Numbered from the stretch's first letter, positions 3,668 to 12,133 are shown. The stretch is 50,519 nucleotides of DNA from an uncultured Pseudomonadota bacterium (GCA_949295935.1 CASFMW010000012.1:1-50519), one strand, 5' to 3'. A program made the numbers and translations. The notes: generated by a model from the sequence alone, not told the origin.

Positions 3668-6600
3668 CTAAAACAGCTGAGGAACGCTATCATCATTTCC
3701 TTTGCTAGTTTCGGCCTTGGTGTTTGTTCCTGAACTTGCAGTTTGTCTGTTGGTGGTTGAAACTGCCGGTGTCATTGATGATGATGGTGGGGGCGGCGGA
3801 GGTAATGCTCCGTTTACATTGCTATTATTTTTTACCTTTGAATCATCTATTAATTTTGGACTACCTGATGATGTATTATTTGTACCTCCGGAACCATATA
3901 CTACTTGGTTATTTCCTCCATTAACTTGTGTTGTGCTGCTTCCTTCAACCTTTTTCTCATTAATGTCATCCTGAACTTTCTTATCATCTATTAGAAGATC
4001 TGTTTTATTAAGCTCTGTTTCTGAGGCGTCTCGTTCAGCCGTTCTTAACCATAAATCTACGTTCGGGAACACAATAATTCTGGTTCCTGCAGGAACGTAA
4101 GTTAATGGTTTTATATTGCTCTTATCTGCTAAGATTTCAGAAAAAACTTCATTCATTTGCGTCAAGAAATTATCTCGAGCATCATTTGCGGCTTGCTGTT
4201 TTGACGTTTCGACTTCACCATTATTCTCTTCGTTTGTTGCCATCAAGTAGGATGTATAACTCGTTAAGGCTGTTGTCATTATCGGCAAGGTATATTTCTT
4301 AAATAGCTGCTGATCAAGATAACCTAAAGCACCGCCGCGCCCCATCGCATCTGCTGTTATACCTTGAAATGTAAATAATACGCCATCTGGTCTGATTAAG
4401 CGTTCCCATGTAATCTGAACTCTTGCTGAAGAAGAAGTATCTTCTGTGGTTGCTACCATGCTGTTTAATGTTCCCATTAAACGGCTTCCTGCCGGAATTA
4501 CTATATTTCGGCCTTCTTCTGCATATACATTGCGTTCAACATATGCTGTTATCGGTGTTGGATTGTTGGAGTCAATTGAACGGGCAATTACGGCAGGAAT
4601 TGGTTTGTCTGCCAATATCATTTCGCTCATATCGACACGCCACGATGAAATTGCTTTTGATATTCCTTCTGCGTCCCAATTTTTTTGATAGCCATCAAAA
4701 GTTTCTGGTTTTATGCCACTTGAAATATGTCCTACCGTAATATTTTGACGACGGAAATTTTGCGCAGCAGCTAATGCAGCAGCACGTCGAGGATCATATC
4801 TTTCTCCAGGACCGAATCCTCCTCCTGGGCCTAAATTGCTAGCAACATTGCCCACACCATAGGCTCCTCCATCCCCAAATGTTCCTGAGGGGACAAACAA
4901 GCCTTCCCCGTCAGGGCGTTTTACTTCTTCTATACCAATCAGGGTTCCGTCATCATCCATTATCAATCCGTCCGGAGTTCTTCTGCCTAGATAATTTCCG
5001 TTTTTATCAACGACTCTTCCATCTTCGAGAATATCGCCAAGGTATTCTCCATCAGGAGTTAAAGCTATGTTCAGAGATTTTCTGTATTGATCTCCCTTGT
5101 AAGGAATTTCTTCTGTCTTTTCGTATACGCCAATTTTGGGTAAGTCTTTTTTTACTTCTGTTCGTGGCTTGCGCTCATACCAATCTTGTCCTTTTCCTCC
5201 GATTATGCTTCCATCTGCACCTCTGACTGTTCCGTCCTCACCAAGTGTTCCGATTAATTTTCCATCTTCATCGTAGACATTACCTTCACCCGCGACATAA
5301 CCGACAACATTTCCATCAGAATCATATATTTTTTCTCTGTCTTGGATAACATTGTAATACTGCAAGGAGTTTGCCTTGCCGATTTCTTCTCCCGAATCGT
5401 TATAAATTCCGCCTTCGTTGCCTAATTTTCCGATAACTGTGCCATTTAAGTTGACTAAATCGCCGTTAAATGAAAGCTCTCCCAGAACTTCATTATTTTT
5501 TTCATTGATAATATAATAGTCACGGTTGCCTCTGGCCAAAACCTTTCCGTTTCTGTTAACCATAAAGCCGCGGTCAATTTTGCCGATTTTACTGCCATCA
5601 ATGCCTCGGATTGAACCATCGGTACCAAGGCTGCCTATAGATTTATTTGCACCGTCATAAACATACATATCATATAGTGCATAACCGATATTAGCACCGA
5701 CAGCATCTTTAACAAAACCATTCCATGTAACCGTTCCTACCGACTTTCCGGTATTATCGTAAACCTTGCCGTCAGAATATATTTCGCCCATATAGCGATT
5801 GCTATTATCAAATGCATGTCTGTATTTAAACAGTCTTCCGATAATTGCATTATTGCTCGATTTTACATTTTCATCAGGTGTAGCTTGCCCTATTAACTGA
5901 TTATTTTCATTCACGACCTGATTATTCAATATTGTTTGACCTATCGGGCTACTGTTAAAATTCATAACCGGATACTGAACAATTCTTGTTCCGAGAAGTT
6001 TTCCGTCTTGTCCATAAAGCCGACCTTGCGCATTTATGCAGCCAAGCATTTTGTTTTCTGCGCTTAAAACTTTTCCATCAGCAGAAATTGTGCCAATAAT
6101 ACCATTCTCTCCAATAACTGCTCCCATATCAACGCCATAACCAATGAAACTTCCGCCTTCATCAAAAGCTTGGTTGTTAAGCATTATTCTTCCGATTTTT
6201 ACGCCACGACTGTTTTTTATATCTCCGGTTGAATTGAGGTAGCCCAAAGGTTGGCATTTTTCATTAACAATGGTCTTATAATCCATTAGATCGCCGATTA
6301 AAATACCGTTATTATCAGTTACAGCCCCGCTTGCTCCGGCTTTTCCTATAATCGAGCTCCCCAAATCTTTTACCTCGCCGTTGTCTTGGATATATCCAAG
6401 CAGTTCACCGCGGAAAGAAATGACAACGTCACCAGCCAATCCGGTGCCTATTTTTGGCATCAGCTGCGTTTCATCTGCATTGTTGGCTTTTGCAATTGAC
6501 AAATCCGGCAATATCTTTCCTATTATCTTACTCTGGTTATTAACGATCAGATTGTCTCCGGCGATATTCCCTAATACTTCTTTAAAAAAGCTTAGGGCCT

Positions 6601-11000: not shown

Positions 11001-12133
11001 TTGTCAATTGCAACTCTGCCGGGTTTTGAAACTTTTCCTACAACATTGTTTTTAAAATCTACGGCCTCTCCTTTGGAATTAATACGGCCGATTACATTGT
11101 TTTCTTTGTCAACAACACTGCCATCTTCCAGTACGCGCCCGATTATATTACCTTTATCATCGTAAACAAAGCCAGTATCAACTGCTTTTCCCAATATATT
11201 ACCGTTATTATCAACAACTGTTCCATCTGGTTGTAATTTGCCGATAATATTGCCATCTTTGTCAACAACTGTGCCGTCTGGGTTTACATAGCCAATAACA
11301 TTTCCATTTTCATCCAATACAATTCTGCGATTTGAACCGACACCAATAACATTTCCATCAGCATCAATCACCATACCATTTGCATTAACACGGCCGATTA
11401 TATTGCCGTTTTTATCACGAACATAGCCTCTTTCATCTATGCTGCCGATTTCTTTTCCGTCTGAACCAACTGCTATCCCGACTGTCTTGGGTTGCGCTTG
11501 AGGTACTTCTAACGCAGGAGCGTCAACAGTTTCACAAAAGTTGCAATCTTCTTTGGTAACAGCATTTCCGATAACTGGAACTTTTTCTGACTTTTTGTTG
11601 CCTTCGCCCAAATTTGTCTCGTACCATGTGACAATAAAGTTATTTTGCATATTTCCGGTTACTACAGGAGACCACCTAATGACAATATTGCAGGTTCTTT
11701 CTCCACGTAACTCCATACGGCTACATCTCTCTTGAAATTTAAATCCATCTGCCGGCGGCTCGGCTAACTCAACAGAAACAATTGTTATTGGAACGCGTCC
11801 CGTTGTTCCGATTGTTAGAACATTGTCTGCCGATGTTCCAACTAAAACTTGTCCCAATGGTATTGGGTTTGGCGTTAAAGTTATAGGCAAAGGAGCATCG
11901 TCTAAATTATTAAATTCTATATTATTATCTAAAGGGCTTACATCGCCAAAATTTAGAGCATCGTCATTGTCTGTGAAAACTGGATCTGTATATTCACTTG
12001 TCTGCTCTCCACTATTTAGCAACAAATATAAACCTATCAAGAATATCAATAACGATGTAATACCAACCGCAAGAATTATGCGGTTGGTTTTTTTTACATA
12101 TACCTCTGAATAAGTTAGATTTTCTTTCGTCAT
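8063..12133 (-). CDS. inner-membrane-anchored giant repeat protein (1356 aa), candidate N-terminal half of a split VirB10
   Basis: 18-aa N-terminus plus a single TM helix IILAVGITSLLIFLIGLYLLL (12017-12079). Ig/PapD/ASH-like segment ...CSRMELRGERTCNIVIRWSPVVTG... (approx 11549-11896). A continuous 17-residue repeat array then runs to the C-terminus. The start overlaps the virB9 stop (ATGA). The stop lies in frame with, and 3 nt from, the virB10 start. Confidence 0.8.
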   Translation of the reverse strand: MTKENLTYSEVYVKKTNRIILAVGITSLLIFLIGLYLLLNSGEQTSEYTDPVFTDNDDALNFGDVSPLDNNIEFNNLDDAPLPITLTPNPIPLGQVLVGTSADNVLTIGTTGRVPITIVSVELAEPPADGFKFQERCSRMELRGERTCNIVIRWSPVVTGNMQNNFIVTWYETNLGEGNKKSEKVPVIGNAVTKEDCNFCETVDAPALEVPQAQPKTVGIAVGSDGKEIGSIDERGYVRDKNGNIIGRVNANGMVIDADGNVIGVGSNRRIVLDENGNVIGYVNPDGTVVDKDGNIIGKLQPDGTVVDNNGNILGKAVDTGFVYDDKGNIIGRVLEDGSVVDKENNVIGRINSKGEAVDFKNNVVGKVSKPGRVAIDKDGKILGVVMPDGTVVDGNGNIVGWADSDGNIITKDVLGTVNGDRRLARDNEGKIIGYVDDAGNVVDFNGNKIGKVLENGQIINQADNLGQQLEKDQGTGYRLAYDKDGNVIGYVDEDGNVRDFNGNIIGRVTEDGRIIDANGNEIGRVGDKVNLIRDANGRIIGYADEDGNVRDFNGNIIGRLDENGKVVPLDGDIIGKVSEKGLLVNDSSGKVIGYVDEEGNFINNAGEIAGKMLPDGKIIDSRGNIIGQVNTAQSDMRRLAYDKDGNVIGYVDEDGNVRDFNGNIIGRVTEDGRIIDANGNEIGRVGDAVRIVRDENGKIIGYVTSDNRVIGANGQQIGILDENGNIIGLTGKKIGTLVSTEMIPIKPNGDVLGKVNNDGSITNQDGSIIGRVLSNGLVKDSSGSKVIAKMVRGGLVVGYGCRNIGYLEQDGKIRKGSEELGYKVMPDGTVVDSNNQYIGEVVRTGRAFDNKCNMIGEIGSDGLVRGAQGEYVGCVNPDGSVLNDKGEIIGGAQKEGVAVSFDGEYLGQVSDDGVITNKSMLPIGCIGASGDIFNREGAYIGRIQNATYGFDMNGNFLNMVDENAKVSVAGEGEYRLLANNILVDDNNKIKGIALDPKTVIADSNGNFIGRVFADGKVYNGQGAEVGTIKGDGFNFYNGQLGINLPQGEVVDFNGQSIGKTLSDGRVISRFGDNIGKIDGNGRLINSKGEYQGAVALSGPAIGYDGSYIGYAISNGDIIDGEGDKVGRVSSDGKALNSRGEVTGEVIKENIMVDIWGEYKGRMNSLGDVIDMRNQTITAILPGGSTDKDLSLLRRGTFLDFEGNVSGTVLPDGSVIDTSNIEYGRVLSDGSIVNKNGSLTGAIVKGDIIINNSDKFAGYVMLNGKIKGEDGSEIGHMLNEEIAVDNENNIIGRVFKIGASILDNKGNYIGRLAANGSVLGQKGELIGNVKNNGSYIDLDKKVSGYALQEVAKNRRN
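10071..10213 (-). repeat. 143-bp direct repeat, copy 1 (partner at 10551-10693)
   Basis: Aligned by eye, with 3 mismatches (10094, 10130, 10205). The offset is exactly 480 bp, so in frame. Encodes RLAYDKDGNVIGYVDEDGNVRDFNGNIIGRVTEDGRIIDANGNEIGRVGD. Confidence 0.9.
10551..10693 (-). repeat. 143-bp direct repeat, copy 2
   Basis: See copy 1. A more diverged third partial copy lies around 10441-10530. Confidence 0.9.

What the first reader, a model, noticed from the sequence alone, without database searches (positions are those of the whole stretch)
3668..12133. VirB10 split (or interrupted by a single in-frame TAA) into two giant polypeptides that share a ~17-residue repeat
Seen, ORF 8063-12133 (1356 aa): it has an 18-aa cytoplasmic stub and one TM helix. 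A PapD/ASH-like Ig segment follows (CSRMELRGERTCNIVIRWSPVVTG). Then an uninterrupted array of a ~17-aa unit (DKDGNIIGKLQPDGTVV, DNNGNILGKAVDTGFVY ...) runs to its last residues. Seen, ORF 3668-8059 (1463 aa): it starts with a Sec-type signal peptide (ICLLAASIMALFCAQTQA|AE). About 1000 aa of a more degenerate version of the same unit follow, then a Gly-rich linker and a clear TrbI/VirB10 barrel domain. Seen, junction: both ORFs are in the same reading frame, separated only by TAA plus one codon (8060-8065). A GGAGG lies 9 nt before the GTG of the second ORF. Established: canonical VirB10 is one bitopic protein of a few hundred residues (N-terminal stub, TM helix, Pro-rich linker, C-terminal barrel) bridging the inner and outer membranes. 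The only repeat-expanded VirB10 I know of is H. pylori CagY, whose repeats are unrelated. Inference: the envelope-bridging role may be divided between an IM-anchored and an OM-associated subunit that dock through their shared beta-hairpin-type repeats. Alternatively, a ~2800-codon virB10 carries a nonsense codon. The hydrophobic signal-like segment right after the stop argues for two genuine proteins.
Basis: partly seen in the sequence, partly recalled or inferred. Interest (0 to 1): 0.88.

Follow-up and report, generated by a model that had tools for sequence, protein, structure and literature searches.

The report
Naturally split giant beta-flower VirB10
In this gut alphaproteobacterium, VirB10 (the type IV secretion protein that normally links inner and outer membrane as one chain) is a giant repeat-filled version that evolution cut into two co-translated genes, giving a natural test of whether that link must be covalent.

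Summary

- **ORF A** (8063-12133, 1356 aa) has a cytoplasmic stub, one TM helix and a PapD/ASH-like Ig domain. A roughly 1100-aa array of 17-residue hairpins follows, which Pfam calls beta-flower.
- **ORF B** (3668-8059, 1463 aa) has a cleavable Sec signal peptide and about 1000 aa of the same repeats. A Gly linker and a true VirB10 barrel with antenna helices follow.
- **Nonsense-codon reading:** refuted. In about 80 species-level genomes of gut and rumen Alphaproteobacteria the two genes are always separate. Their relative frames are 0, +1 and +2 (18/28/26), so the shared frame here is coincidence.
- **Coupling:** A ends in a conserved ...NRRN. Its CGG-AGG codons are B's ribosome-binding site, and B starts 0-6 nt after the stop.
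- **Origin:** relatives carry one 1930-2406-aa VirB10 in the same virB9-virB11 slot (stub-TM-Ig-array-barrel). On a barrel-domain tree the split clade is monophyletic (97%) and nested among these fused giants. This is therefore an ancient gene fission.

That A and B re-associate through their arrays is inference. I found no description of the giant family or the split, so I rate it a new variant of a known kind.

The parts
8063..12133 (-). ORF A (1356 aa): the inner-membrane-anchored N-terminal piece of the split VirB10
   Evidence: ORF, translation. Residues 1-255 align collinearly to residues 1-252 of the fused 2201-aa VirB10 P0209 (32% id, E 2e-34). Orthologs of 1092-2446 aa lie directly upstream of virB10 in all loci read. 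Its ATG overlaps the virB9 stop by 4 nt (12130-12133).
12014..12133 (-). Cytoplasmic stub plus TM helix of A (aa 1-40; conserved motif LTHSExYVKKTNRIIL)
   Evidence: N-termini of 60+ orthologs are conserved. Hydrophobic peak at 19-37. AF2 helix 8-40. The same motif (SSxEQYVKKSNR) opens the fused giants.
11558..11884 (-). PapD/ASH-like Ig domain of A (aa 84-192), followed by a conserved CxxC (C197, C200)
   Evidence: AF2 8-strand sandwich, pLDDT 84-91. Foldseek best hit is the HYDIN PapD-like domain 2e6j, TMt 0.69. Pfam ASH is below cutoff. Aligns to aa 100-185 of the single-chain 579-aa VirB10 P0252 (E 2e-4).
8114..11485 (-). Beta-flower hairpin array of A (aa ~217-1340; 17-residue unit)
   Evidence: Bflower_2 E 2e-83 with 12 stretches. 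Lag-17 z = 20. AF2 shows regular hairpins from 217, pLDDT ~85.
10184..10936 (-). Variable-length cassette inside A's array (aa ~400-650)
   Evidence: Alignment occupancy is 0.18-0.57 here against ~1.0 elsewhere. The 90%-identical relative L004 differs by one 215-aa indel after residue 468. DNA direct repeats 10024-10216 and 10504-10696 are 88% identical.
8057..8073 (-). Coupling junction: GGAGG (8073-8069, inside A's Arg-Arg codons), TAA (8065-8063), AAA, GTG start of B (8059-8057)
   Evidence: The ...AAC CGG AGG AAY stop context is conserved in 72 loci, with TAA, TAG and TGA all used. The annotated or nearest start lies 0-6 nt after the stop, and relative frames are 0/+1/+2 = 18/28/26.
3668..8059 (-). 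ORF B (1463 aa): the Sec-exported C-terminal piece of the split VirB10
   Evidence: 997 homologs were found; the best 120 are all 1453-1711 aa with Bflower plus TrbI.
7985..8059 (-). Signal peptide of B (aa 1-25, predicted cleavage TQA|AEITA)
   Evidence: Variable n- and h-regions precede the invariant EITAIDFNGDL. Position -1 is A/S/G in 72 of 72, and -3 is A/V/T/S in 69 of 72. The uncharged run has a median of 17, against 22.5 for A's TM.
4925..7981 (-). Beta-flower hairpin array of B (aa 27-1045)
   Evidence: Bflower_2 E 1.6e-55. Lag-17 z = 14.6. The hairpin count is fixed across species (occupancy ~1). The N-terminal 51-250 block is the most conserved part of the array.
4796..4924 (-). Gly-rich linker of B (aa 1046-1088)
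   Evidence: Sequence. AF2 pLDDT is below 50 for 1047-1085.
4040..4630 (-). VirB10/TrbI barrel domain of B (aa 1144-1340), including the two antenna helices (aa 1251-1273 and 1286-1313; nt 4121-4309)
   Evidence: PF03743 E 1.9e-33. NCBIfam VirB10 and ComB10 domain hits fall below their equivalog cutoffs. PDB sequence hits are ComB10, TrwE, TraF and Xanthomonas VirB10. AF2 gives a barrel plus helix-loop-helix. The Foldseek top 25 are all VirB10 C-terminal domains, TMt 0.6-0.66.
3671..3937 (-). Low-complexity Ser/Pro-rich C-terminal tail of B, ending in the conserved ...DDSVPQLF
   Evidence: Disordered in AF2. The terminal ...P.LF is shared by split and fused beta-flower VirB10s but not by the ~600-aa relatives.
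12130..13755 (-). virB9 (CagX domain, C-terminal SPOR-like domain), the upstream neighbour
   Evidence: The same neighbour is present in split and fused loci.
2682..3656 (-). virB11 ATPase, the downstream neighbour
   Evidence: The same neighbour is present in split and fused loci.

Best explanation
ORF A and ORF B are two real, translationally coupled genes. They arose by fission of a single giant VirB10 (stub-TM-Ig domain-beta-flower array-Gly linker-TrbI barrel).

- **A** keeps the conserved cytoplasmic stub, the inner-membrane anchor, the PapD-like domain and a hairpin array. It sits N-in, with the array in the periplasm.
- **B** gained a cleavable Sec signal peptide. It is exported and places its barrel and antenna helices in the outer-membrane core complex with VirB9.
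- **Shown:** the anatomy, the conservation of the split, the coupling signals, the signal-peptide pattern, the fused orthologs and the fission polarity.
- **Inferred:** near-equimolar synthesis; non-covalent association of the two periplasmic arrays that rebuilds the inner-to-outer-membrane bridge made by one chain in ordinary VirB10; and whatever the arrays themselves do (spacer, cage, or wall or lipid binding).
For: - **Split conserved:** 72 loci were analysed in full and 8 more by motif. All have separate A and B genes and none is fused. Frames 0/+1/+2 occur 18/28/26 times. The stop varies among TAA, TAG and TGA, and the SD sits inside the conserved ...NRRN codons.
- **Signal peptide:** the -3/-1 rule holds in 72 of 72, before an invariant mature end.
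- **Fused orthologs:** at least 16 clusters at 50% identity, of 1930-2406 aa, and more than 70 further 90% clusters. They carry Bflower plus TrbI. Their N-terminus matches A with E 2e-34. The operon slot is the same, VirB8-VirB8-VirB9-X-VirB11.
- **Polarity:** on a neighbour-joining tree of the barrel domain, the split clade is monophyletic in 97% of bootstraps and split plus fused in 97%. The fused forms are monophyletic in only 1%. The outgroups, P0252 (579 aa) and the ~600-aa VirB10s including Microvirga, are single chains. P0252 carries the same kind of stub, and its Ig-like domain aligns to A's.
- **Barrel:** the barrel and antenna are confirmed.
- **Arrays are structured:** both arrays have a fixed hairpin count outside one cassette each.
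Against: - No direct evidence that A and B touch.
- The arrays of A and B are not collinear paralogs, so there is no obvious domain-by-domain pairing.
- SignalP and DeepTMHMM were not run, so cleavage is inferred from pattern and conservation.
- The tree is neighbour-joining on 225 columns only.
- All genomes are MAGs and none of the organisms has been grown in pure culture, so expression is unproven.
Confidence: 0.8

Rival explanations
1. One ~2800-codon virB10 is interrupted by a nonsense mutation or a sequencing or assembly error, making it a pseudogene.
For: In this window the two ORFs share one frame and are separated only by TAA plus one codon.
Against: The same break occurs in about 80 species-level genomes at 38-92% identity. 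In 54 of 72 the two ORFs are in different frames. Both halves are under strong purifying selection, and a signal peptide and an SD are conserved at the break.
Confidence: 0.01
2. The fission is real but the halves have uncoupled. B with VirB9 forms an outer-membrane complex that is no longer tied to the inner membrane. A is an independent inner-membrane or periplasmic scaffold. On this reading VirB10's energy-sensing link is lost, or taken over by another part such as the second VirB8 or VirB9-SPOR.
For: B has no membrane anchor after cleavage. The arrays are not collinear. A's length varies from 1092 to 2446 aa while B's is stable, which suggests different constraints.
Against: Adjacency and translational coupling are strictly conserved. 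A's cytoplasmic stub, the part that contacts the ATPases in canonical VirB10 (established knowledge), stays highly conserved. B's N-terminal 200 residues, a newly created end, are as conserved as the barrel, which suggests a specific partner.
Confidence: 0.17
3. Programmed stop-codon read-through or frameshifting makes a full-length fused VirB10 from the two ORFs.
For: The same frame in this window and in 18 of 72 relatives. The stop is followed by an A-rich context.
Against: Three different relative frames and three stop codons occur across species, with no conserved slippery site. A fused product would carry an internal signal peptide.
Confidence: 0.01
4. ORF A is an unrelated beta-flower envelope protein that happens to sit next to virB10.
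For: Beta-flower repeats occur in many non-T4SS proteins (PMC10584680). Pfam finds no T4SS domain in A.
Against: A's stub, TM and Ig domain match, from residue 1, the N-terminus of fused VirB10s. A's Ig domain also aligns to that of the 579-aa single-chain VirB10 P0252. A always lies between virB9 and virB10.
Confidence: 0.01

Closest known systems
Canonical VirB10/TrbI (A. tumefaciens VirB10, pKM101 TraF, R388 TrwE, H. pylori ComB10)
   Same: B's C-terminal barrel with a two-helix antenna matches. The gene lies between virB9 and virB11. A's short cytoplasmic stub plus single TM has the topology of the VirB10 N-terminus.
   Different: - Canonical proteins are one bitopic chain of about 350-500 aa with a Pro-rich linker.
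- Here the anchor and the barrel are on separate polypeptides.
- The linker is replaced by an Ig domain plus about 2100 aa of beta-flower hairpins and a Gly-rich segment.
Fused giant beta-flower VirB10s of other gut Alphaproteobacteria MAGs (e.g. P0209 2201 aa, P0211 2266 aa, P0249 2406 aa; database names 'hypothetical protein' or 'DUF3659 domain-containing protein')
   Same: They share all modules, the N-terminal stub motif, the C-terminal ...P.LF end and the operon slot. Isochorismatase and DEAD-helicase genes also lie nearby in both loci.
   Different: They are a single polypeptide with no internal signal peptide. Their array is about 400-600 aa shorter than A's and B's arrays combined.
H. 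pylori CagY
   Same: It is a VirB10 homolog greatly enlarged by repeats. Its repeat number changes by recombination. A's cassette behaves similarly, with a 215-aa indel between 90%-identical relatives.
   Different: CagY is one chain, and its repeats are unrelated to the beta-flower hairpins. CagY facts are from established knowledge.
Legionella Dot/Icm DotG (IcmE) with its neighbour DotF (IcmG)
   Same: DotG has a VirB10-like C-terminal dome (Foldseek hits 9ngw and 7muq) and a long repeat region. It is encoded next to a second bitopic inner-membrane protein that joins the periplasmic part of the core complex (established knowledge).
   Different: DotG keeps its own TM anchor. DotF is not derived from DotG's N-terminus. 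The repeats are pentapeptide repeats, not beta-flower.
[quoted passage not shown] 2023, PMC10584680)
   Same: The 17-residue hairpin carries [DNEQ]xxG turns, and the HMM matches are strong.
   Different: The fold was described as single small domains of about 96-116 aa with unknown function. Here dozens of hairpins form arrays of about 1000 aa inside a secretion-machine subunit. No T4SS link is mentioned in that paper.

Membership tests
VirB10/TrbI | C-terminal TrbI beta-barrel domain | tested here: met
   ORF B aa 1148-1338, PF03743 E 1.9e-33 at 116 bits against a cutoff of 35. ComB10 2bhv E 9e-20. The Foldseek top 25 hits are all VirB10 C-terminal domains.
VirB10/TrbI | Helix-loop-helix antenna that forms the outer-membrane pore | tested here: met
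   AF2 gives helices at 1251-1273 and 1286-1313, inserted in the barrel. Membrane insertion itself is not testable here.
VirB10/TrbI | N-terminal cytoplasmic stub and one TM helix on the same polypeptide as the barrel (bitopic, spanning both membranes) | tested here: not met
   B starts with a cleavable signal peptide. The stub and TM are on ORF A. The feature is met only by A and B taken together, and by the fused relatives.
VirB10/TrbI | Encoded between virB9 and virB11 in a virB-type operon | tested here: met
   On the minus strand the order is VirB9 12130-13755, A, B, VirB11 2682-3656. VirB2 x2, VirB4 and VirB8 x2 lie upstream.
VirB10/TrbI | Pro-rich periplasmic linker | tested here: not met
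   It is replaced by an Ig domain, beta-flower arrays and a Gly-rich linker.
VirB10/TrbI | NCBIfam equivalog score for VirB10 or ComB10 | tested here: not met
   NF038091 scores 111 bits against a cutoff of 220. NF038092 scores 113 against 300. This is a divergent member.
Beta-flower (Pfam CL0395: PF21785, PF21784) | HMM match above gathering score | tested here: met
   A scores 276 bits and B 186 bits for PF21785, against a cutoff of 38. PF21784 scores 110 and 50 bits.
Beta-flower (Pfam CL0395: PF21785, PF21784) | Short antiparallel hairpins with a semi-conserved [DNEQ]xxG turn motif | tested here: met
   17-residue period with z = 20 and 14.6. AF2 shows alternating 5- and 3-residue strands. 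The motif is defined in PMC10584680.
Beta-flower (Pfam CL0395: PF21785, PF21784) | Closure of 4, 5 or 6 hairpins into a shallow barrel ('flower') | not testable with these tools
   Model coordinates are not returned, only secondary structure and pLDDT.
PapD-like / ASH Ig domain | Seven- or eight-strand beta-sandwich matching PapD-like folds | tested here: met
   AF2 aa 84-192, pLDDT 84-91. HYDIN 2e6j matches with TMt 0.69 and rmsd 3.1.
PapD-like / ASH Ig domain | Pfam ASH (PF15780) or NCBIfam choice-of-anchor-D match above cutoff | tested here: not met
   23.3 bits against 27, and 26.3 against 45. The resemblance is of fold only.
Sec signal peptide (SPase I type) on ORF B | Positive n-region, h-region shorter than a TM helix, small residues at -3 and -1 | tested here: met
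   KKKTSR, then ICLLAASIMALFC, then TQA|A. The pattern is conserved in 72 of 72 orthologs. A dedicated predictor (SignalP) was not available.

The most novel reading that the evidence does not exclude
This is a natural two-piece VirB10. The inner-membrane-to-outer-membrane coupling, thought to need one continuous TonB-like chain, would here run across a non-covalent interface between beta-flower arrays. That would give the beta-flower fold its first functional context, as a periplasm-spanning, length-adjustable structural module of a secretion machine. A's recombining cassette would then tune the span or the exposed surface, much as the CagY repeats do.
Probability: 0.4. Interest if true: 0.8.

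Novelty: new variant of a known kind. Interest (0 to 1): 0.66.

Why it matters
VirB10 is the textbook example of a protein that spans both membranes of a Gram-negative cell. It is thought to pass the energy state of the inner-membrane ATPases to the outer-membrane gate.

**A natural experiment.** A lineage with at least 80 species-level genomes examined here, and about 210 detected, has kept the anchor and the gate on separate, co-translated polypeptides since a single fission. 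Sister lineages keep them fused. Comparing the two asks directly whether covalent continuity is required.

**A family with no literature found.** The work also reveals a large family of 2000-2400-aa VirB10s in mammalian and bird gut Alphaproteobacteria for which I found no literature. It places the function-less beta-flower fold inside a defined machine.

**Limits.** The organisms have not been grown in pure culture, and the mechanism is inferred. This is a lead for structural and heterologous-expression work, not a demonstrated new principle.

Tried and rejected
- **Collinearity of the arrays:** I tested this with sliding-window Smith-Waterman, BLASTP to giants and block-wise HMMs against giants, A orthologs and B orthologs. 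Only the unique ends and a Cys-containing block give stable anchors. The repeats otherwise cross-match at several positions. I therefore could not decide between a simple break and a partial duplication followed by reciprocal loss, and could not map the break point on the fused proteins.
- **DNA tandem repeats:** TRF finds none.
- **Search with A's first 255 aa:** it returned only 57 fragmentary in-clade hits and no outgroups. The full-length query was needed.
- **PDB sequence search with the arrays:** only a marginal Rhs hit, 7q97 at E 7e-4, which I treat as repeat-composition similarity.
- **Literature:** searches for beta-flower, DUF3659, RF32 or CAG-239 with secretion, and VirB10 fission or split found only the fold-discovery papers for the beta-flower fold and nothing on this system or a split VirB10.
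- **Rejected readings:** read-through or frameshift recoding and a sequencing artefact, both on the cross-species frame data.

Full report
**1. The observation**

Both ORFs exist as described, but on the minus strand: ORF A 8063-12133 (1356 aa) and ORF B 3668-8059 (1463 aa). The minus strand at the junction reads AAC CGG AGG AAT TAA AAA GTG. The two ORFs are therefore in one frame, separated by TAA plus one codon, with GGAGG 9 nt before the GTG.

ORF A opens with an 18-residue stub and a strongly hydrophobic helix. A PapD-like domain follows. Pfam ASH is just below its cutoff. An AF2 model built on 42 sequences gives an 8-strand sandwich at 84-192 with pLDDT 84-91, and its best Foldseek matches are HYDIN and CEP192 PapD-like domains. 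From residue 217 to the end the chain is a hairpin array.

ORF B starts KKKTSR-ICLLAASIMALFC-AQTQA|AE. About 1000 residues of hairpins follow, then a Gly-rich disordered linker and a TrbI domain (PF03743, E 1.9e-33). The TrbI domain hits ComB10, TrwE, TraF and Xanthomonas VirB10 by sequence and every solved VirB10 C-terminal domain by fold. The model includes the two long antenna helices at 1251-1273 and 1286-1313.

The repeat is real. Identity autocorrelation at lag 17 is 20 SD above shuffles in A and 14.6 SD in B, and is absent in the barrel. A against B gives E 4e-59.

Bflower_2 matches with E 2e-83 and 1.6e-55, and Bflower and DUF3659 also match. [quoted passage not shown]

**2. Two genes, not a broken one**

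ORF B has 997 homologs. The best 120 are all 1453-1711 aa with Bflower plus TrbI. Source names include Azospirillum sp. CAG:239 and Candidatus Scatocola faecigallinarum.

A scan of one genome per species found 210 genomes with a relative. The best 79 loci, at 38-92% identity, are all gut, rumen or faecal uncultured Alphaproteobacteria. In 72 loci where both genes could be parsed, plus 8 more checked by motif, a separate A-type ORF (1092-2446 aa, median 1146) precedes a separate B-type ORF. None is fused. Two loci have extra frameshifts, probably assembly errors.

- **Frames:** the frame of B relative to A is 0, +1 or +2 in 18, 28 and 26 loci. The shared frame in this window is chance.
- **Junction:** A always ends ...LQEVAKNRRN. 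The CGG AGG codons supply the GGAGG for B. The stop is TAA, TAG or TGA, and the annotated or nearest start lies 0-6 nt downstream. This is the signature of translational coupling.
- **Signal peptide:** B's N-terminus varies in its n- and h-regions. It ends with small residues at -1 (A60, S11, G1) and -3 (A50, V11, T4, S4, L3), immediately before an invariant EITA(I/V)(D/N)F. Its uncharged run has a median of 17, against 22.5 for A's TM. That is the pattern of a cleaved Sec signal peptide.

**3. Where it came from**

A full HMMER search with B's last 424 residues found a second class of relatives at 31-50% identity. These are proteins of 1930-2406 aa, forming at least 16 clusters at 50% identity. 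They begin with the same stub motif (SSxEQYVKKSNR + TM) as ORF A. They continue through the Ig-like domain and a roughly 1600-aa beta-flower array, and end with the TrbI domain and the same ...P.LF C-terminus as ORF B.

- ORF A residues 1-255 align from residue 1 to P0209 (E 2e-34).
- A search with full-length A returns about 35 A-type clusters and then more than 70 further fused giants covering 98-100% of A.
- P0209 lies in VirB8-(65 aa)-VirB8-VirB9-[2201 aa]-VirB11. Isochorismatase and DEAD-helicase genes are also nearby in both loci.

On a neighbour-joining tree of the barrel domain (51 taxa, 225 columns, 200 bootstraps) the split clade is monophyletic in 97% of replicates. Split plus fused together are monophyletic in 97%, and the fused forms alone in only 1%. 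The split lineage is therefore nested among the fused ones.

The next relatives out are single chains of 550-630 aa without beta-flower repeats. They include P0252 and a Microvirga tunisiensis TrbI/VirB10 protein. P0252 carries the same kind of stub, and its Ig-like domain aligns to A's.

The most economical history has three steps:
1. A stub-TM-Ig-barrel VirB10.
2. Insertion and expansion of a beta-flower array.
3. One fission, with gain of a signal peptide on the downstream piece.

**4. What I could not resolve**

A's and B's arrays together (about 2140 aa here; the full-length A plus B sum has a median of 2683 aa) exceed the fused arrays (about 1575 aa in P0209). This hints at partial duplication rather than a clean break. 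However, block-wise profile mapping gives stable anchors only for the unique ends and for a Cys-containing block. Elsewhere the hairpins cross-match at several positions. The break point and the fission mechanism remain open.

**5. How it probably works**

*Shown.* A has a highly conserved cytoplasmic stub and TM. Both arrays have a fixed number of hairpins across species, except for one cassette each (A aa ~400-650, B aa ~900-1000). B's new N-terminal 200 residues are about as conserved as the barrel.

*Inferred.* The two proteins are made in near-equal amounts. A sits N-in with its array in the periplasm. B is exported, cleaved and assembled with VirB9 into the outer-membrane core. The arrays associate to restore the inner-to-outer link that a single chain provides elsewhere. 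I give this about 0.5-0.6.

*Main rival.* The halves have become independent (0.17). What the arrays do in either form (spacer, cage, wall or lipid binding) is unknown.

*A's cassette.* It changes fast. The 90%-identical relative differs by one 215-aa indel, flanked by 88%-identical DNA repeats. This recalls CagY. A and B lengths are negatively correlated (Spearman -0.49, not corrected for phylogeny).

**6. Comparison and novelty**

By fold, domain and gene position, ORF B is a VirB10. It fails the bitopic single-chain criterion, which is met only by A and B together. The closest relatives are the fused giant beta-flower VirB10s, which carry only generic database names.

CagY and DotG are analogues as repeat-expanded VirB10s. 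DotF/DotG is an analogue as a pair of neighbouring envelope-bridging proteins. None of these is a split of one VirB10.

I found no paper describing the giant family, a beta-flower link to type IV secretion or a split VirB10. The library does not cover most subscription journals. I rate this a new variant of a known kind, with moderately high interest.

Noticed in passing
window 14532-14720 (-): A 62-aa ORF lies between the two virB8 genes and carries a lipoprotein signal (LVSAC lipobox). It is a likely VirB7-type lipoprotein. ORFs of 62-65 aa sit at the same place in split and fused relatives.
   Followed up: partly
window 31176-42041 (+): A type IVb-pilus-like gene cluster lies next to the T4SS locus on the opposite strand. 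It contains TcpQ, a secretin, a PilO-like accessory protein, a T2SSE ATPase, T2SSF and a second ATPase.
   Followed up: no
window 12130-13755 (-): VirB9 (CagX domain) carries a C-terminal SPOR-like peptidoglycan-binding domain, right at the Pfam cutoff (21.8 bits against 21). The VirB9 of the fused-type locus L083 is shorter (491 aa) and has no SPOR hit on record.
   Followed up: no
window 15603-23146 and 26099-27922 (-): Five operon ORFs (1278, 404, 280, 541 and 607 aa) have signal-peptide-like N-termini and no Pfam or NCBIfam match. A crude hydropathy scan found no clearly polytopic VirB6-like protein. The 810-aa VirB4 has an N-terminal TM segment, possibly a VirB3 fusion. No VirD4 or relaxase lies next to virB11.
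   Followed up: partly
window 3671-3700 (-); proteins P0209, P0211, P0233, P0249: The extreme C-terminus ...(D/N)SVPQLF of ORF B follows a disordered Ser/Pro-rich tail. The terminal ...P.LF is shared by split and fused beta-flower VirB10s. The ~600-aa relatives lack it and often end with a ...PPW... motif instead. Its function is unknown.
   Followed up: partly
window 10024-10696 (-); locus L004: A's array contains 88-93% identical DNA direct repeats spaced 480 nt apart. A single 215-aa length difference separates it from a 90%-identical relative. One species (L067) has a 2446-aa A protein.
   Followed up: partly
window 1155-2632: Isochorismatase and DEAD-box helicase genes flank the T4SS here. 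They also lie near the T4SS of the fused-type relative L083, which suggests a chromosomal, vertically inherited locus rather than a mobile element.
   Followed up: no
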